DNA of 64,000 bases from an uncultured Gammaproteobacteria bacterium (GCA_964510885.1 CAZEDL010000001.1:129310-193309), one strand, 5' to 3'. Shown: positions 1,119-61,705, numbered from the stretch's first letter. The notes: a model not told the origin generated them from the letters alone. Numbers and translations: made by a program.

Positions 1119-1694
1119 ATGCTCAACAAAAAATACTTCCAAACCGTACGCGAGGAACTACTATCCTACGCCGAAAAACGTCGCGAAGTCATTAAATCCT
1201 CCGGTGATGCTCAGCACCAGGCTAAACGGGCTATTTTTGCCCTGCAGCGCGATGACCGCCCAGAAGCTAAGAAATGCCTCGATACCGCCAGCGAGCTGCT
1301 TATGGGCCTAAATAAGCGCTACCACAAGAGTCCAGAGTTATTCGAAGAAGGGTCTTACCGAGCCTCGCTTGAAGAATATGTCGAAGCTTGGCTATTTCAT
1401 GAATACCTCGAGGGTCGTGATATGGGCCCGGTCAACGGCCTCACCGTCGACCCGGATTTATATGTTAGCGGCCTCGCTGATGTTCCCGGAGAAATGCTGC
1501 GCTATGCCATTAAAGCTGCCACCGAACGCGATTTTATGATGGTAAAAAAATGCTACCAAGCTGCCGAAATGATTGTCAGCGAAATGGTAGATATGGACCT
1601 CACTGGTTATAACCGCCAAAAATTTGACCAAGCCAAACAAGCTCTCAACAAACTCCAACAAGTAGTATACGAAGTGAGCCTCAAAACGTCATAA
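1119..1694 (+). CDS. Hypothetical helical protein, possibly translin-family
   Basis: 191-aa ORF with no competing frame. The motif LEEYVEAWLFHEYLEG and its length and helical character are loosely translin-like. Assignment is tentative. Confidence 0.5.
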   Translation: MLNKKYFQTVREELLSYAEKRREVIKSSGDAQHQAKRAIFALQRDDRPEAKKCLDTASELLMGLNKRYHKSPELFEEGSYRASLEEYVEAWLFHEYLEGRDMGPVNGLTVDPDLYVSGLADVPGEMLRYAIKAATERDFMMVKKCYQAAEMIVSEMVDMDLTGYNRQKFDQAKQALNKLQQVVYEVSLKTS

Positions 1695-4867: not shown

Positions 4868-5206
4868 TTATCCGTATTGCTGAATCGAGCTTTTACGGGC
4901 CTCGGCCTGAGTACTGAGTTCCGTTTTAATCCGCTCCGCTTCTGCCTCAACCAGCTCCCCATCATATTCACCCGCATGAGCGGTAACACCGGTATAGACC
5001 GTTGCCCGCTGGTCAAGATGCAAATTGAGCTGAGCGGTTTCACCCCGGTCCTCAACATACAAATGAAACCGGGGGTACAAATCATGCCGTACCCGACGCA
5101 CAAAACTTTGCGTACCATGCCGACGATCTTGAAGAACACTATACCCAAGGCGGCGGAGAGTAATGGTCGGATTACCTAATTCTATTTTAGAAATCATTAT
5201 TTTCAT
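4868..5206 (-). CDS. Small protein, possibly a ribosome hibernation factor (HPF/RaiA-like); tentative
   Basis: 112 aa. The stretch LNLHLDQRATVYTGVTAHAGEYDGELVEAEAERIKTEL loosely follows the HPF pattern (LHVNG..A....DMYAAID.L.DKLERQL). The gene ends in the shared terminator. The frame competes with ORF 4852-5148. Confidence 0.3.
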   Translation of the reverse strand: MKIMISKIELGNPTITLRRLGYSVLQDRRHGTQSFVRRVRHDLYPRFHLYVEDRGETAQLNLHLDQRATVYTGVTAHAGEYDGELVEAEAERIKTELSTQAEARKSSIQQYG

Positions 5207-5214
5207 AAATATCT

Positions 5215-5658
5215 ATGTTATCACAGGATACACCGCAACACTTTGCCGATCAAGAGCAAGAAAAATTTGACCAAATCCGCGCATGGGAAAAACTTCTTAC
5301 GGAAGCTGTTTTCCAAACTTTTGTAGTAAAACAACTCTTCCCCGAAGCAGAAAGTGACGAAGCTGCTTTTGGAAAATACATTGGGGAAACCCCGGCTACT
5401 GGCTATAACACTGATTATCGAGCCGCCCTTAAAGAAATTAAAGATAACGACGATTATTCAAAATTAAGGGACGAACTTAAAAGTGTGATTGCTTTATGTC
5501 ATACTGAAAATCCAACCGGGGCTCAAAGTGTAAAAAGTGCCCGCGTGGACACCCTAATTACTAACTTACCAGAAGGCGCCAAAGAAGCAATTGGTCATTT
5601 TACGGCTGGGCTAACTGAAGTAATTCACACTATAAGAGCCAAAAAAAGTAAAAACTAG
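5215..5658 (+). CDS. Hypothetical protein
   Basis: 147-aa ORF, divergent from the 4868-5206 gene. No recognisable motif. Confidence 0.5.
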   Translation: MLSQDTPQHFADQEQEKFDQIRAWEKLLTEAVFQTFVVKQLFPEAESDEAAFGKYIGETPATGYNTDYRAALKEIKDNDDYSKLRDELKSVIALCHTENPTGAQSVKSARVDTLITNLPEGAKEAIGHFTAGLTEVIHTIRAKKSKN

Positions 5659-17902: not shown

Positions 17903-17936
17903 TTGGCCTCACTTGTTACCTGCAGTTACCACCGTC

Positions 17937-17986
17937 GACTCATTTCACAATCAATCCATGTCATTCCTGACCAGGATCAGGAATCC
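17937..17986 (+). repeat. GTCATTCC-palindrome repeat unit, copy 1
   Basis: CTCATTTCACAATCAATCCATGTCATTCCTGACCAGGATCAGGAATCCAC is 47/50 identical to the reverse complement of 53461-53510. It has an internal hairpin GTCATTCCTGA/TCAGGAATC. Confidence 0.7.
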
Positions 17987-18161
17987 ACAGTTAAAATTTT
18001 TAATTTTCAATTAAAGAATCACTGGGCGACACCATCATTAAAAATTGTAAATTGTATTTATTGACCGAAGGGAAACTAATTGAAAATCATATCTGATACC
18101 ATGTGGATTGTGGATTCCTCCGACTGAGTTGGGAGGATGAGAGTTTTAACATGACTTTTAT

Positions 18162-30176: not shown

Positions 30177-31148
30177 ATGCAGAAATCAAATACTCCTATA
30201 ATCAAGCACTTCACCCCTTTTCTTGACTACTGCGAGGTAGAGAAAGGTTTGAGTCCTACCACTACGCGCAATTATCACAATTTCCTAAAAGTCTTTGCAG
30301 ACTGGCTCACTGAGCAAAAATTAACCACGCTTAAGCCGCATGACTTAACTCAGGAACATATTTGGAACTATCGACTATTCCTTTCCCGTCACAAAGACAA
30401 GCACACCAATCAGCCAATCAAAAAAACCACCCAAAACTACTACCTAATCGCTCTACGCAACCTACTTAGCTATTTAAGCATCCGCGACATTGCCGCTCTG
30501 CCATCTGATAAAATTCAACTACCAAAATTGACTGACAAAGATAAAGCTATAAAATTTCTCACCTATGATCAGGTAGAAAAGCTGCTATCAATGCCCGATA
30601 TTACTGATGAATCTGGCCTCCGTGACCGGGCCATTCTCGAGCTCCTCTTCTCCACCGGGATGCGTGTCTCGGAACTAACGTCGCTTAATATTAGGCTATT
30701 TGATAAAAATGCTATAATCAGCGGAAAAATAACTGATCTAGAGATAAGTATTAGCGGTAAAGGTGAATCTACGCGCACCGTATACTTCTCAACCCGGGCG
30801 CTCAAATGGCTGGGTGCATACCTCAAAACCCGTCAAAACGACCTCTACCCCCCTCTGTTCATTAATTACGCCAAAACCCAAAAAGATAATACCGAACGCC
30901 GACTCACTCCCCGCTCTATCGAACGCCTAGTGCGTCAATACACCAGCATGGCCGGTCTGCCAGTGGATGCCACCCCCCATACCCTGCGCCACAGCTTTGC
31001 TACCGACCTTTTGGATCAAGGAGCTGACATGCGCTCGGTGCAAGAACTGCTTGGGCACAAAAATATTGTTACCACCCAAATTTATACGCACGTGACCAAC
31101 AAAAAATTGCACGATATTCATACTAAATTCCATCGAGGGAATAAATAA
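30177..31148 (+). CDS. xerC: Tyrosine site-specific recombinase, XerC/XerD-like
   Basis: Catalytic residues in conserved context: RDRAILELLFSTGMRVSEL, HTLRHSFATDLL, LGHKNIVTTQIYTHV. An insertion of about 35 aa (LFDKNAIISGKITDLEISISGKGE) lies between the R box and the H box. Confidence 0.85.
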   Translation: MQKSNTPIIKHFTPFLDYCEVEKGLSPTTTRNYHNFLKVFADWLTEQKLTTLKPHDLTQEHIWNYRLFLSRHKDKHTNQPIKKTTQNYYLIALRNLLSYLSIRDIAALPSDKIQLPKLTDKDKAIKFLTYDQVEKLLSMPDITDESGLRDRAILELLFSTGMRVSELTSLNIRLFDKNAIISGKITDLEISISGKGESTRTVYFSTRALKWLGAYLKTRQNDLYPPLFINYAKTQKDNTERRLTPRSIERLVRQYTSMAGLPVDATPHTLRHSFATDLLDQGADMRSVQELLGHKNIVTTQIYTHVTNKKLHDIHTKFHRGNK

Positions 31149-51805: not shown

Positions 51806-52601
51806 TATGACGGGAAAATATAGTCAATTATTTAAGAATTGGTTGCAGCGTTTATTGGCCTACCGCGTCCGGATTATCATCTGGCTAATACGCGATGTCG
51901 CCATGTTTATTATTTTTCCTTTCATCTGGCTCGCCATCTACGGCGACCGGCCCGAGATTGGCAGCTTTTCGAAAGCCAACATAGTCACCTACTACGTGGT
52001 GGTCGCTTTTATCAACACGGTCGTAACCTCACATATCGGCGATGTTATTAAAAAAGATATCGTCCGTGGCGAATTAAACACCCTGCTACTTCGCCCGATG
52101 CCCTATGTATTTTATCATTCAATTCACGAAATAGCCTACCGCGTCTATGGCTTACTTGCAGCCACCCTCACTTCAAGCGTGCTATTGTTCGCTCTGCCCG
52201 GGTGGATTTCTTTCCCCACCCCTCTAAACAGTTTATTTTTTATAATTTCACTCGTGCTTGCCTTTGTAATTTCGCAAACCCTCCAGACTCTGATCGGGCT
52301 GGCGGCTTTTTGGCTCGGCGAAAACAGTTCACTTAATAATACGACAACTCTGTTACAGATGATCTGCGGTGGAGAAATCGCCCCGCTAAGCTTTTTCTCC
52401 CCACTCGTACAACTGATCGCCGCCTGGCTCCCCTTCAAATATCTGATCTATGTACCCGCTCAAATTTACCTGAACCAACTAAGTCCCACTGAAATTGGCC
52501 GACATTTTCTGTTGACGGCTGTTTGGATCATTTTACTCAGCTTGTTTACTCGCTTCTGTTGGCAACGAGGCGTTCGCACATATGATGGCTCTGGTATATG
52601 A
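51795..52601 (+). CDS. ABC-2 family transporter permease
   Basis: 6-TM ABC-2 architecture. Translationally coupled to the next permease with a 4-nt overlap. Confidence 0.6.
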   Translation: MTADMTGKYSQLFKNWLQRLLAYRVRIIIWLIRDVAMFIIFPFIWLAIYGDRPEIGSFSKANIVTYYVVVAFINTVVTSHIGDVIKKDIVRGELNTLLLRPMPYVFYHSIHEIAYRVYGLLAATLTSSVLLFALPGWISFPTPLNSLFFIISLVLAFVISQTLQTLIGLAAFWLGENSSLNNTTTLLQMICGGEIAPLSFFSPLVQLIAAWLPFKYLIYVPAQIYLNQLSPTEIGRHFLLTAVWIILLSLFTRFCWQRGVRTYDGSGI

Positions 52602-53389
52602 TCAAAAAATATTTCACACTCTATCGTCTGTTTTTTAATAACGCCCTGTCGCTCGAAGCACAATACCGCGTTGATACCTGGCTAAAATTGATTACGAATA
52701 TCATTTGGATCATAACGCTATTTGCCATTATTGAAGTAGTCTTCAACCATACCAGTGCATTATTAGGCTGGAGCAAAGCCGAGGTCTATATTCTCACCAT
52801 GCTGTGGGTGCTGCTTGATGAATTATTCATTACGCTGTTTCGAGAAAACTTCTATGATTTTTCTCTTTTGACCGCCGAAGGCCAACTTGATTTTTACCTG
52901 ACTAAGCCAGTAAACACCCTCTTTTTGGTCACCACCAAGCGGATCTTGGCTCGAGCCGGATACCGTTTTATCATGCAGATAGCAGTTCTCCTGTACGTAC
53001 TCTGGAATTTTGACATCACCATCAGGATCTCATTTATCCCCTTATTTATCTTGTTATTAATCATCGGACTTATCATTCAATACAGCTATTCCTTATTTTT
53101 TAATATCTTTAGTTTCTGGTACCTCAGGATTGAAAATATTAACGAACTGATCGGAGCGCTATCTATGTCCGGGCGGTATCCGCTTAGTATTCTGCCGAAA
53201 ACACTAAAAATTATTACCTTTAGTGCTATCCCGATCGCCTTCTCTGCCTATGTGCCCCTGGCCGTATTACTCGGTAAAATGCCCTGGACGGTTACGTTCC
53301 TCGCTCTTGGCGTCGCGCTCAGTTTCTTTGGTCTGAGTGTATCTTTTTGGAACTATGCGGTCCGCCAGTATTCGAGCGCTTCAAGTTAA
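52598..53389 (+). CDS. ABC-2 family transporter permease (second subunit)
   Basis: 6-TM ABC-2 architecture. Paralogous in layout to the preceding ORF. Confidence 0.6.
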   Translation: MIKKYFTLYRLFFNNALSLEAQYRVDTWLKLITNIIWIITLFAIIEVVFNHTSALLGWSKAEVYILTMLWVLLDELFITLFRENFYDFSLLTAEGQLDFYLTKPVNTLFLVTTKRILARAGYRFIMQIAVLLYVLWNFDITIRISFIPLFILLLIIGLIIQYSYSLFFNIFSFWYLRIENINELIGALSMSGRYPLSILPKTLKIITFSAIPIAFSAYVPLAVLLGKMPWTVTFLALGVALSFFGLSVSFWNYAVRQYSSASS

Positions 53390-53402
53390 TTACTATGAGC
53401 AA

Positions 53403-53510
53403 TCTCAAACTTGTCATTCCCGCGCAGCAGCGGGAATGCATTCGCTCATTTTATGAGTAAAGTGTGCATTCCTGATCCTGGTCAGGAATGACACGGATTG
53501 ATTTTGAAAT
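53403..53510. repeat. Composite palindrome of two GTCATTCC...GGAATG(C/A) units
   Basis: Unit B1 is GTCATTCCCGCGCAGCAGCGGGAATGCATTCGCTCATTTT. Unit B2 at 53461-53510 is the reverse complement of the 17937-17986 unit (47/50). The two units face each other across CTCATTTTATGAG. Confidence 0.7.
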
Positions 53511-53558
53511 GAGTTAAATGACACGAATTAATTTTGACAAGAATTCTATACACACATT

Positions 53559-54572
53559 ATGTCTACCCCGATAATCACCCTCACCGACCTCAGCAAGACC
53601 TATGAATACTACAAAAAAGAACCAGGCCTCATGAGCTCTTTAAAAAGCTTGGTGTACCGAAAAAAATTATATGCCGAAGCCGTAAAGAAAATTAATCTGA
53701 ATATTCAACCCGGTGAATTGATCGGATTTCTGGGGCCAAACGGTGCTGGTAAAACGACCACCCTCAAAATGCTCTCGGGGATTATTCATCCTACCAGCGG
53801 GTCTGCCAGCGTGCTCGGGTATACGCCGTGGCAGCGCCAAGCCGACTTTCAAAAGCAATTCGCCTTGGTGATGGGGCAGAAAAATCAGCTGTGGTGGGAT
53901 TTGCCAGCGATGGAAAGTTTTTTATTAAACAAAGCTATCTACGAAATTACCGATTCTGCCTTTAGTGCTACCCTGCAGGAATTAGCAACCATCCTTGATA
54001 TTAACGACATCCTACATATACCGGTCAGGAAATTATCCCTCGGCCAGCGCATGAAATGTGAGCTGACCGGAGCCTTATTACATTCACCGCAAGTATTATT
54101 CCTTGATGAGCCTACCATTGGGCTTGATGTGGTGTCGCAAAAAAATATTCGGGAATTTCTAAAAAAATATAACCGCCAAAAAAATATCACGATTATCCTG
54201 ACGTCACACTACATGGAAGATGTAGAAGCGCTCTGTGAACGAGTCGTGATCATTAATCACGGCAGCCTTATCTATGACGGCGCCCTAGCGAGCCTCCTCA
54301 CAACCTATGCCAACCAAAAAATACTGGAGGTAACATTTACTCTGCCCATTCCTGAAACAGACCTGTCAGCTTTCGGCCGTATTCAAGAATATGCACCGAG
54401 CCGGGTTGTGCTTGAAGTGCCAACTGAAAAAAGTAAAGATGTAGCTATCACCCTCCTACGCGACTTCCCAGTCGATGATATTCTAATCAATGAAATTGCC
54501 GTTGATGAAGTAGTCCGCAATATTTTTCTCGCCCCTCCGGCGGTTGCCCAAGCTACCAGCGGTCTTAAGTAA
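53559..54572 (+). CDS. ABC transporter ATP-binding protein partnered with the ABC-2 permeases
   Basis: Walker A GPNGAGKTT, signature LSLGQRMKC, Walker B LFLDEPTIGLD, H-loop TSHYMED, and a C-terminal extension. Confidence 0.85.
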   Translation: MSTPIITLTDLSKTYEYYKKEPGLMSSLKSLVYRKKLYAEAVKKINLNIQPGELIGFLGPNGAGKTTTLKMLSGIIHPTSGSASVLGYTPWQRQADFQKQFALVMGQKNQLWWDLPAMESFLLNKAIYEITDSAFSATLQELATILDINDILHIPVRKLSLGQRMKCELTGALLHSPQVLFLDEPTIGLDVVSQKNIREFLKKYNRQKNITIILTSHYMEDVEALCERVVIINHGSLIYDGALASLLTTYANQKILEVTFTLPIPETDLSAFGRIQEYAPSRVVLEVPTEKSKDVAITLLRDFPVDDILINEIAVDEVVRNIFLAPPAVAQATSGLK

Positions 54573-57928: not shown

Positions 57929-58125
57929 CTGTCATTCCGACCGGGCACAGCCACGAGCCTGCCTGCGGAGCGAATAATCTCTGTCGAATTTAGGAACACA
58001 TATCCAGTTACCGCATAATCACCGCTCTGTCATCCTGAGTGAAACGAAGGATCCCTTGGCGATGGTGATGAGTGGAATTCTCCGCTCCGCTCAGAATGAC
58101 AAGTGGGAACATATGAACCAGCTCT
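57929..58125. repeat. Intergenic block with GTCATTCC-family palindromic units
   Basis: CTGTCATTCCGACCGGGCAC at 57930-49. TGTCATCCTGAG (58028-39) pairs with CTCAGAATGACA (58090-101) across a ~50-nt spacer. CTTGTCATTC is shared with unit B1. Confidence 0.55.
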
Positions 58126-58146
58126 AATTATTCATTAAATACTCTT

Positions 58147-58184
58147 AAAAAATAAAACCTCCCTCAGCATCAACCAAGGGAGAT
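58147..58184 (-). terminator. Intrinsic terminator of proS (minus strand)
   Basis: On the minus strand: CTCCCT-12 nt-AGGGAG followed by a U-run, which is the plus-strand A-run at 58147-58157. Confidence 0.6.
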
Positions 58185-58204
58185 TTAATTGTACTAAGCT
58201 TGGA

Positions 58205-59440: not shown

Positions 59441-59627
59441 ATAAAACAGAGATAAGTAAACTTTGCTAACTATAGCATATTTTTATGAAATGGCAAATCT
59501 GATCTGAATGATAATTACAAGGAAATATAATTAAAAAATAAAATCTCGTAAATAACCATTTACAATTTTCTTGACTTGACTACTAAAAACTTGCTATGTA
59601 CTTAACTAGACAAGTATGGAGGAGTCC

Positions 59628-60278
59628 ATGGAAAAATCAGAAATTGTTGTTTTTTTCGTAACCGACGCCAGGCAGTGGCACACCGAGCGGCTGCGCAGAA
59701 TCGGAGCCAATATCGGAGTGTACTGCATAGAAAACCATGTTCGGCGCCCAGTCATTTGCACTGCGGCGAATGGCAAACACTCAGTATGGACTTATTTCTG
59801 GGTGATCTGGGGTCTAAAAGGAGGCTTTCGCGGCTTGAGCAGATTCTTGCCATATTTCCGCCGAGAAGCCAACTCAGAAAACAAAGACGGGCGCGAGGAG
59901 ACGAAGCTGCTCTTCGACCATATCTGGGAAGGTCACTTTGCTGGGGAAACCCGCAGGCAAGGTGATCCCAGTCACGCGCACAGTGGATGGGTGACGAGCG
60001 TGCTCGTGGTTGGCCACCATGAGGCATTGAATCGGGTGCTCATCAGGCTCATACGCGAGTATATGGCGCCTGTAAAAGCGGGGCTCGTACCAATCTTGGC
60101 CGAAGCAGGGCTCGACGGTCGCCACCGTCAAAAAAAGCCCCCATTCACTCTCGGCAAAGCCGAGTTAGTAATCATGCGATTTGAACTTGACCCCAGTAAT
60201 AATTATTCGACCACGCTCATATCGATTGAGCATGGTATCGAGCTGAGCGCCACCGACACCCCTCCCACAATCGAATAG
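59628..60278 (+). CDS. Hypothetical protein (orphan); start set to second ATG preceded by GGAGGAG
   Basis: Strong SD GGAGGAG 3 nt upstream of the ATG at 59628. Locally higher GC with many overlapping shadow ORFs. No recognisable family. Confidence 0.4.
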   Translation: MEKSEIVVFFVTDARQWHTERLRRIGANIGVYCIENHVRRPVICTAANGKHSVWTYFWVIWGLKGGFRGLSRFLPYFRREANSENKDGREETKLLFDHIWEGHFAGETRRQGDPSHAHSGWVTSVLVVGHHEALNRVLIRLIREYMAPVKAGLVPILAEAGLDGRHRQKKPPFTLGKAELVIMRFELDPSNNYSTTLISIEHGIELSATDTPPTIE

Positions 60279-60375
60279 CCGCCATCTTCGCCGCTTCCGA
60301 CGACATCCCCCACCCTTTCTATCTATTTAGAGGATAAAAAGGGAGGAGAAAAATACTGATGTCGCCTGAAGTAAT

Positions 60376-60400
60376 AAAACCCTCCACTGGAGGGTTTTAT
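60376..60400. terminator. Bidirectional terminator between convergent genes
   Basis: AAAACCCTCC-actg-GAGGGTTTTATT. Confidence 0.7.
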
Positions 60401-60407
60401 TATTTAT

Positions 60408-60753: not shown

Positions 60754-61614
60754 TTATGTGCCACACCCAGGAGTAGCGGATCCTCCGCTACCACTTGAAT
60801 CCGCTGCTGTGCCAAAACCAGGCACAAAAGCTACCGTACTGAGTGTTTGACCGCACTCAGCTGGTGGATTATTGAAAGAAGCACAGACGGCTTGTTTAAT
60901 CGCTTCGGGGCTGCGGGAACTGTCGATAATAGCACCGTTAATCACGAGGGTCGGAGAACCTTGAACACCGTAGCCTTCGCTCGCAGTTTGATCAATGGGG
61001 AAAATCGGGAATTGACCGGAGAGCCACTTGGACTGATCATTATACTGTGCCATCACGCCGAATTGTTTATCTGTTTTATCGGTACAGACTTTTAGTTTGC
61101 CAGTGTTCACTTTGGCGCTCGCAAGGCAGCCATCGGAATTGCCACCGGCGGCAAAACAGGAAAGATAGGCCTGGAAGACTTTTGGTTGTTCTGACTCAAT
61201 GCAGTGCTGGCGGGTATTTTCTTCTACTTCCTTTAGCCCGTGCATGGCATAATGCACAAATTTCAGATCAAAATCGGCTTTTTTGCCGAGTGTCTGCCAG
61301 ACCGGCAAGAAGCCTTTTTCCATCTGGAGTCCATAAGGGCAATAAGACATGACAAATAGTTCTACTTTTGGGCGATCACTCTTTGGAATATTGGCCGGAG
61401 GTGGGGGCAAGGCCTTAGCATTGGCAACATCATCAGCTGTTGCCTTATAGGCATAATTTGATGAGGGTCCGGCCGAACCAAATTGTAGAGTGCCACGAGC
61501 CAACAGACTCAACATGATAATGAAACCGAGAGTACAGAGTACCAAAAGTCCAGACACACAGCCGATGATCAGAGCGGATCTAGGATCTAAATTATCGAAG
61601 AGATTTTTTTGCAT
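60754..61614 (-). CDS. Membrane-anchored thioredoxin-fold (DsbA-like) thiol-disulfide oxidoreductase
   Basis: N-terminal TM segment. CxxC active site VMSYCPYGLQ. Thioredoxin-fold C-terminal part. Start set to the ATG at 61614. Confidence 0.65.
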   Translation of the reverse strand: MQKNLFDNLDPRSALIIGCVSGLLVLCTLGFIIMLSLLARGTLQFGSAGPSSNYAYKATADDVANAKALPPPPANIPKSDRPKVELFVMSYCPYGLQMEKGFLPVWQTLGKKADFDLKFVHYAMHGLKEVEENTRQHCIESEQPKVFQAYLSCFAAGGNSDGCLASAKVNTGKLKVCTDKTDKQFGVMAQYNDQSKWLSGQFPIFPIDQTASEGYGVQGSPTLVINGAIIDSSRSPEAIKQAVCASFNNPPAECGQTLSTVAFVPGFGTAADSSGSGGSATPGCGT

Positions 61615-61705
61615 AAGCGTACAGTGAAAAAATAAATGCATCTTAGGCTTAGTACACATCATTGTACCGTAGACTTGTGAATAGTCAAGCAATACAAGCT
61701 GTTTT

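What the first reader, a model, noticed from the sequence alone, without database searches (positions are those of the whole stretch)
53393..53558. Composite palindrome built from two GTCATTCC-family units inside a surface-glycan transporter operon
The 166-nt spacer between the second ABC-2 permease and the ABC ATPase is unusually long for this genome. It is filled by two related hairpin units facing each other: GTCATTCC-CGCGCAGCAGCG-GGAATGCA and GCATTCC-TGATCCTGGTCA-GGAATGAC. They meet around CTCATTTTATGAG. The conserved arms with variable palindromic inserts look like a family of REP/MITE-like elements. Sitting inside an operon, it could act as an RNA-stability or polarity element.
Basis: seen in the sequence. 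Interest (0 to 1): 0.5.

Follow-up and report, generated by a model that had tools for sequence, protein, structure and literature searches.

The report
Inserted pair of REP-type hairpin repeats
The long gap between two transporter genes holds an inserted pair of small hairpin-forming DNA repeats from a widespread, already described family (Neisseria dRS3/NTS, 'CGTC-tagged REPs'), seen here in a candidate-phyla-radiation bacterium, so it is largely ordinary.

Summary
The 169-nt gap (53390-53558) between an ABC-2 permease gene and its ATPase gene holds two facing hairpin units (53412-53440 on +, 53465-53493 on -). They are not chance palindromes. A profile built only from copies in other genomes finds exactly these two units plus one more at 17956-17992 (E 2e-5 to 1e-12).

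Each unit has an unpaired TGTC tag, an 8-bp stem starting ATTCC, a 6-nt loop and a short tail. This is the anatomy of the CGTC/TGTC-tagged REP superfamily, which includes Neisseria dRS3/NTS and the 'Ssn-related motifs'. In Neisseria these units are bound and cut as single-stranded DNA by the small GIY-YIG nuclease SsnA.

The facing arrangement, tags outward, is the usual pairing for this family. It is also the topology that brackets ssn genes elsewhere, including in a CPR MAG.

Five of six distinct orthologous operons have no hairpin at this junction, with gaps of 17-23 nt or an extra gene, so the doublet is an insertion. Both spacer units carry G where the family almost always has C. No ssn gene lies in the window. 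An RNA stability or polarity role is untested and not favoured.

Verdict: new member of a known kind; modest interest.

The parts
52598..53389 (+). Second ABC-2 permease gene (ABC2_membrane_6); its stop codon is the left border of the spacer
   Evidence: Pfam PF06182, E 1.3e-38; ORF list
53390..53558 (.). 169-nt intergenic spacer. Its first ~15 nt and last ~10 nt resemble the 20-nt spacer of the L002 orthologue; the remainder is inserted repeat DNA.
   Evidence: read directly from the sequences; orthologue gaps
53412..53440 (+). Hairpin unit 1: tag TGTC (53412-15), stem ATTCCCGC/GCGGGAAT (53416-23 / 53430-37), loop GCAGCA (53424-29), tail GCA (53438-40; the family norm is CCA)
   Evidence: CM R1 hit 53409-53445 (+), 25.7 bits, E 2e-5; the same insert CGCGCAGCAGCG occurs in L055, L123 and L134
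53441..53464 (.). 24-nt inter-unit spacer containing the small palindrome CTCAT-TTT-ATGAG (53445-53457). It is not conserved in other doublets.
   Evidence: alignment A1 shows only the units are conserved, not the linker
53465..53493 (-). Hairpin unit 2 (read on the minus strand): tag TGTC (53490-93), stem ATTCCTGA/TCAGGAAT (53468-75 / 53482-89), loop 53476-81, tail GCA (53465-67)
   Evidence: CM R1 hit 53460-53496 (-), 38.2 bits, E 2e-9; 94% identical over 52 nt to 17938-17989
53487..53545 (-). Two direct copies (30-nt period) of the upstream flank plus tag of unit 2: TCAAAATCAATCCGTGTCATT (53487-53507) and TCAAAATTAATTCGTGTCATT (53517-53537). The second has no hairpin behind it; it may be a partial third unit or a footprint.
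   Evidence: the repeat finder D1; pattern search gives 3 matches against 0 expected
53559..54572 (+). ABC transporter ATPase gene; right border of the spacer
   Evidence: Pfam ABC_tran; N-terminus conserved with orthologues
17938..17989 (+). Paralogous copy of unit 2 with its upstream flank. It carries the canonical CCACA tail and lies in the mreC / 181-aa ORF / PBP2 operon gap.
   Evidence: blastn 49/52 identical; CM R1 hit at 48.8 bits, E 1e-12; neighbouring genes from Pfam
18105..18145 (-). Degenerate partner unit (TCCTCC...GGAGGAATCCACAAT) facing the 17960 copy; weak evidence
   Evidence: CM R1 hit at 12 bits, E 0.4; sequence
58028..58101 (.). Second facing doublet, from a different sub-family: TGTCATCCTGAGTGAAACGAAGGATCC (+, 58028-58055) and TGTCATTCTGAGCGGAGCGGAGAATTCC (-, 58074-58101). 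It lies in the 276-nt gap between the flippase and tRNA-synthetase genes.
   Evidence: the orthologous gaps are 82-110 nt with no units

Best explanation
The spacer is an ordinary short gene junction of about 20 nt that has received a convergent doublet of REP-type hairpin repeats.

Each unit is directional. It has an unpaired TGTC tag, an 8-bp stem that always starts ATTCC followed by three freely covarying pairs, a 6-nt loop and a short tail. This is the anatomy of the CGTC/TGTC-tagged REP superfamily. That superfamily includes Neisseria dRS3/NTS and the 'Ssn-related motifs'.

Shown here:
- The units belong to a family dispersed across many phyla, including Patescibacteria.
- The facing arrangement, tags outward and tails inward, is the family's usual paired form.
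- The same topology brackets small GIY-YIG (ssn-type) nuclease genes in other genomes, including one CPR MAG.
- The doublet is absent from the other orthologous operons.

Inferred:
- The doublet is a gene-less miniature of an ssn cassette, comparable to a REPIN or MITE relative to its insertion sequence.
- It acts at the DNA level. When the DNA is single-stranded (replication, transformation, repair) each unit folds into a hairpin. An Ssn-type nuclease binds the hairpin and cuts a few nucleotides upstream of the tag. That activity would spread or maintain the repeats and modulate recombination.
- At this site the doublet is a passenger. It is co-transcribed within the permease-ATPase mRNA, where its two stable hairpins may incidentally affect decay or translational coupling.
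- Both spacer units have G instead of the near-invariant C just 3' of the stem. That C is the base most critical for SsnA binding in Neisseria. They are therefore probably decayed or immobilised copies.
For: Family membership by an independent profile:
- CM R1 was built from 55 copies in other genomes. It hits only 17956-17992, 53460-53496 and 53409-53445 with significance, and it fixes their orientation.

Dispersal:
- A second 52-nt copy lies at 17938-17989.
These come from Patescibacteria, Chlorobiales, Anaerolineales, Nitrospirae, Bacteroidales and others.
- 16 metagenome contigs, mostly from groundwater, carry the window's stem variants.

Structure:
- The three variable stem pairs are paired in 65-91% of 77 distinct inserts, against 35-50% in shuffles, with GC, CG, AT and TA types all present.

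Tag and tail:
- Among units not constrained by the search pattern, the tail starts with C in 95 of 105 and reads CCA in 76 of 105. The tag begins with T in 66 and C in 32.
- This matches the published description of CGTC REPs: a tag that can be TGTC, 8-9 bp stems starting AT, and a CCA tail.

Arrangement:
- 45 of 63 neighbouring unit pairs are convergent.
- CPR metagenome contigs show mostly convergent heterodimers, 15 convergent pairs in 11 of the 16 contigs, with 15-50 nt between the two stems.

Link to Ssn:
- SsnA binds and cuts NTS hairpins as ssDNA, and the NTS-ssnA-NTS layout is published.
- Ssn-like GIY-YIG ORFs occur in 9 of about 115 hairpin loci and hit PF01541.
- In 6 of 10 ssn loci the gene is bracketed by a (+) unit on one side and a (-) unit on the other. 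These include units of the 8-bp stem / 6-nt loop class. L063 has the same GCAGCA loop as unit 1.
- A 'Candidatus Paceibacterota' MAG has ssn flanked by inverted exact NTS.

Insertion:
- The orthologous junction is 20 nt in L002/L003. It holds other genes with 17-57 nt gaps in L001, L004/5, L141 and L142.
- Only L001 has a unit there, a single one directly after the permease stop.
Against: - No ssn or GIY-YIG gene and no transposase lies in the 64-kb window. The rest of the source genome could not be read, so the cognate enzyme is unproven for this organism.
- No Ssn gene was found in about 90 kb of CPR-like metagenome contigs that carry these units.
- The window units fail the published search definitions: the SRM regex, NTS within 4 edits, and dRS3 with N8.
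- Both spacer units lack the C that is critical for SsnA binding.
- Mobility of such doublets has never been demonstrated. Di Nocera et al. found no dedicated transposase for CGTC REPs.
- L001 has a unit at the same junction. That could mean local conservation rather than independent insertion.
Confidence: 0.8

Rival explanations
1. The doublet is a selected cis-acting RNA element inside the operon. Its two hairpins would stabilise the upstream permease message, attenuate read-through, or uncouple translation of the ATPase. coli REP/BIME elements in the mal operon.
For: It lies between co-oriented, functionally linked genes and would be transcribed. The RNA fold is -53.7 kcal/mol with z = -4.9. 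A related unit sits directly after the same permease stop codon in L001. The 17960 copy also lies inside an operon, mreC-PBP2. One weak terminator-like call was made at 53429-53446.
Against: It is absent from the other orthologous operons, L002/L003, L004/5, L141 and L142. The same units occur between convergent genes and in either orientation relative to transcription. An asymmetric tag and tail conserved across phyla is not explained by an RNA hairpin function. No U-tract follows either hairpin, and terminator-like calls are at the level seen in shuffles. There is no Rfam match. SsnA does not bind RNA.
Confidence: 0.12
2. The spacer is a scar left at a rearrangement hot spot. It would be the remains of a gene, such as the ATP-grasp, PEP-utilizer or third permease genes found at this junction in relatives, that was deleted from this lineage.
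For: The junction immediately upstream of the ATPase gene is occupied by four different genes in four relatives.
Against: tblastx and blastn of the spacer against the inserted genes of L001 and L004 find only the shared hairpin unit. The doublet, the flank repeats and the remnants of the native junction account for nearly all 169 nt.
Confidence: 0.04
3. The doublet is a REP/REPIN or MITE mobilised by a classical transposase, such as a RAYT or IS200/IS605 TnpA or a DDE enzyme, rather than by an Ssn-type nuclease.
For: The doublet architecture is that of REPINs. Di Nocera et al. left open the possibility that CGTC REPs are mobilised by other transposases.
Against: There is no GTAG tag. No Y1 or DDE transposase lies in the window. 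I saw no target-site duplication at the doublet borders. CGTC REPs are not associated with RAYT genes. Ssn-type genes, by contrast, are bracketed by these very units.
Confidence: 0.04

Closest known systems
CGTC-tagged REP superfamily (Di Nocera, De Gregorio & Rocco 2013, BMC Genomics 14:522; PMC3733652)
   Same: Both have an unpaired 4-nt tag, and the paper notes that CGTC is often replaced by TGTC. Both have an 8-9 bp stem starting A-T, T-A and a short unpaired tail with consensus CCA. Both are extragenic, with one inverted dimer type predominant and heterodimers with different stems common. Neither has an associated RAYT.
   Different: The loop here is 6 nt, against 4-5 nt in the four published families. 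The two spacer units have a GCA tail that can pair with the tag. Patescibacteria is not among the five phyla reported in 2013.
Neisseria dRS3 / NTS and 'Ssn-related motifs' with the SsnA GIY-YIG ssDNA nuclease (Chenal et al. 2025, Nat Commun 16:2388; PMC11893778)
   Same: Unit 1 (TGTCATTCCCGCGCAGCAGCGGGAAT) is nearly the NTS core (CGTCATTCCCGCGMAVGCGGGAAT) with a 2-nt longer loop. Both are directional hairpins. Units of the window's class bracket ssn-type genes in other genomes. A CPR MAG carries ssn between exact NTS copies.
   Different: The window units fail the published NTS, dRS3 and SRM search patterns. The critical C after the stem is G in both spacer units. No ssn gene lies in the window, and copy density is low at 3 profile hits in 64 kb.
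REPINs and E. coli BIMEs (REP doublets)
   Same: Both are two inverted REP-type hairpins separated by a short variable linker and located in intergenic DNA, often within operons. Both may be non-autonomous derivatives of a cassette bracketed by the same repeats.
   Different: REPINs and BIMEs carry GTAG tags and are tied to RAYT (IS200/IS605-like Y1) enzymes. Here the tag is TGTC and the associated gene class is a GIY-YIG nuclease. Mobility has not been shown.

Membership tests
CGTC/TGTC-tagged REP superfamily (Di Nocera 2013) | Unpaired CGTC tag (variants TGTC and CCTC) at one end of the palindrome | tested here: met
   TGTC lies directly 5' of the stem in units 1 and 2 and in the 17960 copy. 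In related loci the tag begins with T in 66 and with C in 32 of 105 units.
CGTC/TGTC-tagged REP superfamily (Di Nocera 2013) | [quoted passage not shown] | tested here: met
   The stems are ATTCCCGC/GCGGGAAT and ATTCCTGA/TCAGGAAT, 8 bp each. The inner three pairs covary across 77 distinct inserts.
CGTC/TGTC-tagged REP superfamily (Di Nocera 2013) | Loop of 4-5 nt | tested here: not met
   The loop is 6 nt (GCAGCA, CCAGGA) in all three window copies. Four- and five-nt loops occur in relatives such as CGCGAAAGCG.
CGTC/TGTC-tagged REP superfamily (Di Nocera 2013) | Short unpaired 3' tail fitting CCA | tested here: inconclusive
   The 17960 copy has CCACA, which meets the feature. Both spacer units have GCA, which does not. 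The family-wide tail is CCA in 76 of 105 units.
Neisseria NTS (Chenal 2025) | Match to CGTCATTCCCGCGMAVGCGGGAATCYRG with at most 1 mismatch | tested here: not met
   No window match within 4 edits; unit 1 needs about 5. L139 and L140 match exactly.
Neisseria dRS3 | ATTCCC-N8-GGGAAT | tested here: not met
   Unit 1 is ATTCCC-N10-GGGAAT. Unit 2 has ATTCCT/AGGAAT arms.
Ssn-related motif (SRM; Chenal 2025) | Match to HGTCWYN(0-2)YYVSBRHN(0-5)WNVSBRGN(0-2)RNCYNB | tested here: not met
   The regex has 0 matches in the window, and even the canonical 17960 copy fails it.
Ssn-related motif (SRM; Chenal 2025) | C immediately 3' of the palindrome (most critical base for SsnA binding) | tested here: not met
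   The base is G in both spacer units and C in the 17960 copy. It is C in 128 of 128 pattern hits although S (G or C) was allowed, and in 95 of 105 unconstrained units.
Ssn-related motif (SRM; Chenal 2025) | A cognate ssn (single-domain GIY-YIG, cd10448) gene in the same genome, typically bracketed by the motif | not testable with these tools
   There is none in the 64-kb window, and the source assembly is not indexed. The association is shown for the same unit class in other genomes and for a CPR MAG.
REPIN / RAYT-type REP | GTAG tag and association with a RAYT (Y1 transposase) | tested here: not met
   The tag is TGTC. No Y1_Tnp domain lies in the window.
MITE | Terminal inverted repeats of a known IS plus a target-site duplication | tested here: not met
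   The borders AAACT|TGTC and GACA|CGGAT show no direct duplication. There is no IS in the window.
Intrinsic (Rho-independent) terminator | GC-rich hairpin immediately followed by a U-tract | tested here: not met
   Neither unit is followed by a T-run. The scan gave 1 weak site against 0.8 expected, and that site is not a unit hairpin.

The most novel reading that the evidence does not exclude
In Patescibacteria the TGTC-ATTCC hairpin doublets may be true non-autonomous mobile elements. They would be gene-less miniatures of ssn cassettes, copied by a GIY-YIG single-strand nuclease. That would be a REPIN-like system built on a different enzyme fold. The G-tail variant in this operon, whose tail pairs with the tag and removes the base needed for nuclease binding, would be an immobilised copy retained because its hairpins tune permease versus ATPase expression.
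Probability: 0.1. Interest if true: 0.6.

Novelty: new member of a known kind. Interest (0 to 1): 0.3.

Why it matters
It places the dRS3/NTS/CGTC-REP hairpin family in the very small, compact genomes of candidate-phyla-radiation bacteria. It also shows that a whole class of units (8-bp stem, 6-nt loop, TGTC tag) escapes the published SRM search pattern, so current censuses undercount the family.

The shared topology of ssn cassettes and gene-less doublets gives a concrete, testable hint that Ssn nucleases propagate these repeats. For annotation, it explains several over-long intergenic gaps and spurious small ORFs of the 'VIPAQQ...' type in such MAGs. It does not reveal a new kind of system.

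Tried and rejected
- **Cyanobacterial repeat idea.** HIP1 (GCGATCGC) occurs only twice in 64 kb, and the organism is a Magasanikbacteria-like CPR bacterium.
- **Known RNA family.** There is no Rfam hit at the gathering threshold or at E <= 1; the only hit is a meaningless lncRNA match at E 0.92.
- **Published motif definitions.** The SRM regex, NTS with up to 4 edits and dRS3 all fail to match.
- **Loose hairpin regexes.** GTCAT plus a 5-bp arm, or any 7-bp stem, give counts no better than shuffles. Specificity comes only from the full unit and the CM.
- **GIY-YIG gene in the window.** A motif regex and a custom HMM over all six-frame ORFs of at least 30 aa found none.
- **Source contig.** Exact-protein look-ups for both start variants of the ATPase were not on record, so copy number and ssn presence in the source genome could not be determined.
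- **Gene-remnant hypothesis.** There is no residual similarity to the genes inserted at this junction in relatives.
- **Phage carriage.** The pattern has 0 matches in 2.9 million viral contigs.
- **Internal promoter.** TTGACA at 53534-53539 has no usable -10 element, and the only call in the gap (TATACA-17-GATAAT) runs into the ATPase gene at the level seen in shuffles.
- **Integron attC idea.** It was considered and dropped, because the only tyrosine recombinase in the window (30177-31145) looks like XerC/D rather than an integron integrase and I saw no attC-type core sites.
- **Supplementary tables of Chenal et al.** These are not held, so I could not check whether Patescibacteria were in their census.

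Full report
**Observation**

- The second ABC-2 permease gene (52598-53389, PF06182) and the ABC ATPase gene (53559-54572, PF00005) are separated by 169 nt.
- The ATG at 53559 is the true start. The encoded N-terminus (MSTPIITLTDLSKTYEYYKKEPG) lines up with the starts of the orthologues in L001 and L002. The database copy P0001 is called 24 codons shorter.
- The gap holds GTCATTCC-CGCGCAGCAGCG-GGAATGCA (53413-53440) and, facing it, GCATTCC-TGATCCTGGTCA-GGAATGAC (53466-53492). CTCAT-TTT-ATGAG (53445-53457) lies between them.
- As single-stranded DNA or RNA the region folds into two separate hairpins plus the small central one. The z-scores are -5.7 and -4.9, and no shuffle of 200 folds as well.
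- The median intergenic gap in the window is 16 nt. This gap is long, ranking 12th of 59, but is not the longest.

**The hairpins are copies of a dispersed repeat**

- A 52-nt stretch comprising unit 2 and its flank recurs at 17938-17989 on the other strand, with 49 of 52 positions identical.
- That copy lies in the gap after mreC, in the mreB-mreC-PBP2 cluster.
- The 21-nt flank plus tag, TCAAAATCAATCCGTGTCATT, occurs three times in the window against 0 expected. One of the three is a hairpin-less partial copy at 53517-53537.
- A different sub-family forms another facing pair at 58028-58055 (+) and 58074-58101 (-). It lies in the 276-nt gap between the flippase and a class II tRNA-synthetase gene.

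**Organism and orthologous operons**

The ATPase's closest relatives are from Candidatus Magasanikbacteria and other Patescibacteria. Synteny (PriA, def, fmt, a large membrane protein, two permeases, ATPase, GT2, GT4, flippase, tRNA synthetase) is conserved in relatives.

The permease-ATPase junction varies among relatives:

| Locus | Content of the junction |
|---|---|
| L002/L003 (74% identical ATPase) | 20 nt, no gene |
| L001 (80%) | ATP-grasp gene |
| L004/L005 (78%) | PEP-utilizer-domain gene |
| L141 | 266-aa gene |
| L142 | third permease |

- Gaps around these inserted genes are 17-57 nt.
- None of these loci has the doublet, and L002, L004, L141 and L142 have no units at all.
- L001 has one unit, TGTCATTCCCGCGGGACAGCGGGAATCCACA, starting 7 nt after the same permease stop. 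It also has a facing doublet after its ATPase gene.
- The spacer retains no similarity to the genes inserted in relatives.
- So the doublet is an insertion into a short native junction, in a lineage where these units come and go.

**The family elsewhere**

They came from Patescibacteria (Daviesbacteria, Berkelbacteria, and one MAG with hits on about ten contigs), Chlorobiales, Anaerolineales, Nitrospirae, Dehalococcoidia, Bacteroidales, Campylobacterota and others.
- All 128 matches had C after GGAAT, although G was allowed.
- The N12 insert is mostly palindromic. Its outer three positions pair in 65-91% of 77 distinct inserts, against 35-50% in shuffles, using GC, CG, AT and TA pairs. This gives an 8-bp stem and a 6-nt loop.
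- In units not constrained by the search pattern, the tail starts with C in 95 of 105 and reads CCA in 76 of 105. The tag begins with T in 66 and with C in 32.
- Neighbouring units are convergent, tags outward, in 45 of 63 cases.
- A metagenome scan for the window's own stem variants returned 16 contigs, mostly from groundwater. In 11 of them the units sit in convergent heterodimers, 15 pairs in all, with 15-50 nt between the two stems, and 33 of the 35 units end in a C tail.
- The doublet in L123 aligns to the window's over 86 nt at 80% identity, but only the units are conserved, not the linker.
- A covariance model built from 55 copies in other genomes finds three significant matches in the window: 17956-17992 (48.8 bits), 53460-53496 (38.2 bits) and 53409-53445 (25.7 bits). 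Sense scores are far above antisense scores.
- A weak, degenerate facing partner lies at 18105-18145.
- Viral contigs hold no match.

**What is known about this family**

- Di Nocera et al. (PMC3733652) defined CGTC-tagged REPs. The tag is often TGTC, stems are 8-9 bp and begin with A-T pairs, loops are 4-5 nt, and the tail is CCA. One inverted dimer type predominates, heterodimers are common, and no transposase is associated. Neisseria dRS3 is a member.
- Chenal et al. (PMC11893778) showed that the 28-nt Neisseria NTS (CGTCATTCCCGCGMAVGCGGGAATCYRG) is bound as single-stranded DNA by SsnA, a 94-aa GIY-YIG nuclease.
  - SsnA cuts a few nucleotides upstream of the NTS.
  - The C just after the palindrome is the base most important for binding.
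  - dsDNA, RNA and the reverse strand are not substrates.
  - ssn genes across phyla are flanked by such motifs, in an NTS-ssnA-NTS layout that resembles an insertion sequence.

**Tests of that link here**

- A small HMM of Ssn-like ORFs found GIY-YIG genes in 9 of about 115 hairpin loci and none in the window. The seed sequences hit PF01541.
- In 6 of 10 ssn loci the gene is bracketed by a (+) unit on one side and a (-) unit on the other, tags outward. This is the same topology as the gene-less doublets.
- The brackets in L071 and L063 are of the window's 8-bp stem / 6-nt loop class. L063 shares unit 1's GCAGCA loop.
- A profile search found an Ssn-like protein labelled Candidatus Paceibacterota (P0179). 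Its gene is flanked by an exact NTS at 4919-4946 (+) and a one-mismatch NTS at 5399-5426 (-).

**Where the window units depart from the definitions**

- They fail the published SRM regex, NTS within 4 edits, and dRS3.
- Their loop is 6 nt rather than 4-5.
- Both spacer units carry G, not C, after the stem. This lets the tail pair with the C of the tag and lengthens the hairpin.
- L135 shows a fully symmetric relative, TGTCATTCC...GGAATGACA.
- If the Neisseria rule transfers, both spacer units would be poor nuclease substrates.
- Because the two units form a quasi-palindrome, templated correction between the arms could explain why both carry the same change. That is inference only.

**Interpretation**

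The best-supported reading has three parts:
- The spacer is a native junction of about 20 nt plus an inserted convergent doublet of TGTC-tagged REP-type hairpins.
- The doublet is probably a gene-less miniature of an ssn cassette.
- It acts, or once acted, at the level of single-stranded DNA.

The Ssn dependence in this genome is inferred, not shown. No ssn gene or transposase lies in the window, and the rest of the genome could not be reached.

An RNA-level effect on the operon is possible as a side effect, but it is not what the comparative evidence points to. There is no U-tract, no Rfam family, and no doublet at this junction in any of the orthologues.

**Verdict**

This is a new member of a known kind, with two minor novelties. 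These are its presence in CPR bacteria as a unit class that published motif searches miss, and a G-tail variant. Interest is modest.

Noticed in passing
window 57929-58204: The 276-nt gap between the flippase start and the tRNA-synthetase stop holds a second facing doublet from another GTCAT sub-family (58028-58055 on +, 58074-58101 on -). A degenerate TGTCATTCCGACCGG... end lies at 57930. The orthologous gaps are 82-110 nt with no units.
   Followed up: partly
window 17903-18161: The best-scoring family copy (17956-17992, canonical CCACA tail) also sits inside an operon, between mreC and a 181-aa ORF followed by PBP2. A weak degenerate facing partner lies at 18105-18145.
   Followed up: partly
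window 53517-53545: A second copy of unit 2's upstream flank plus tag (TCAAAATTAATTCGTGTCATT on the minus strand) has no hairpin behind it. It could be the remnant of a third unit or a footprint of how the units are copied. It remains unexplained.
   Followed up: partly
L001, L004/L005, L141, L142 versus window 53390-53558: The junction just upstream of the ATPase gene is a variable slot in this lineage. It is empty or holds an ATP-grasp gene, a PEP-utilizer-domain gene, a 266-aa gene with no Pfam match, or a third ABC-2 permease.
   Followed up: partly
window 53559-53630: The database version of the ATPase (P0001, 313 aa) starts 24 codons downstream of the conserved N-terminus. The start at 53559 is supported by the orthologues.
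   Followed up: yes
window 53395-53460: A 21-codon ORF (MSNLKLVIPAQQRECIRSFYE) runs through unit 1. 'VIPA...'-type peptides are a typical artefact of translating these hairpins and are likely to be mis-called as genes.
   Followed up: no
window 60372-60402: A near-perfect 31-nt palindrome, TAATAAAACCCTCCACTGGAGGGTTTTATTA, lies between convergent genes (59616-60278 on +, 60757-61692 on -). It looks like a bidirectional intrinsic terminator and is unrelated to the GTCAT family.
   Followed up: no
L135 721-748: A fully symmetric hairpin, TGTCATTCCCGCGCAGCAGCGGGAATGACA, carries the tag on both strands. It is a possible intermediate form related to the G-tail units in the window.
   Followed up: no
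L070 2298-3161 and 6266-6590: A Rhodothermales MAG has arrays of alternating (+)/(-) units from two sub-families with a regular period of about 150 nt, directly upstream of its ssn-like gene.
   Followed up: no
window 1119-1691: An ORF has a Translin-family domain (PF01997, E 1.3e-17), which I believe (from memory, not checked here) is mostly known from eukaryotes and archaea.
   Followed up: no
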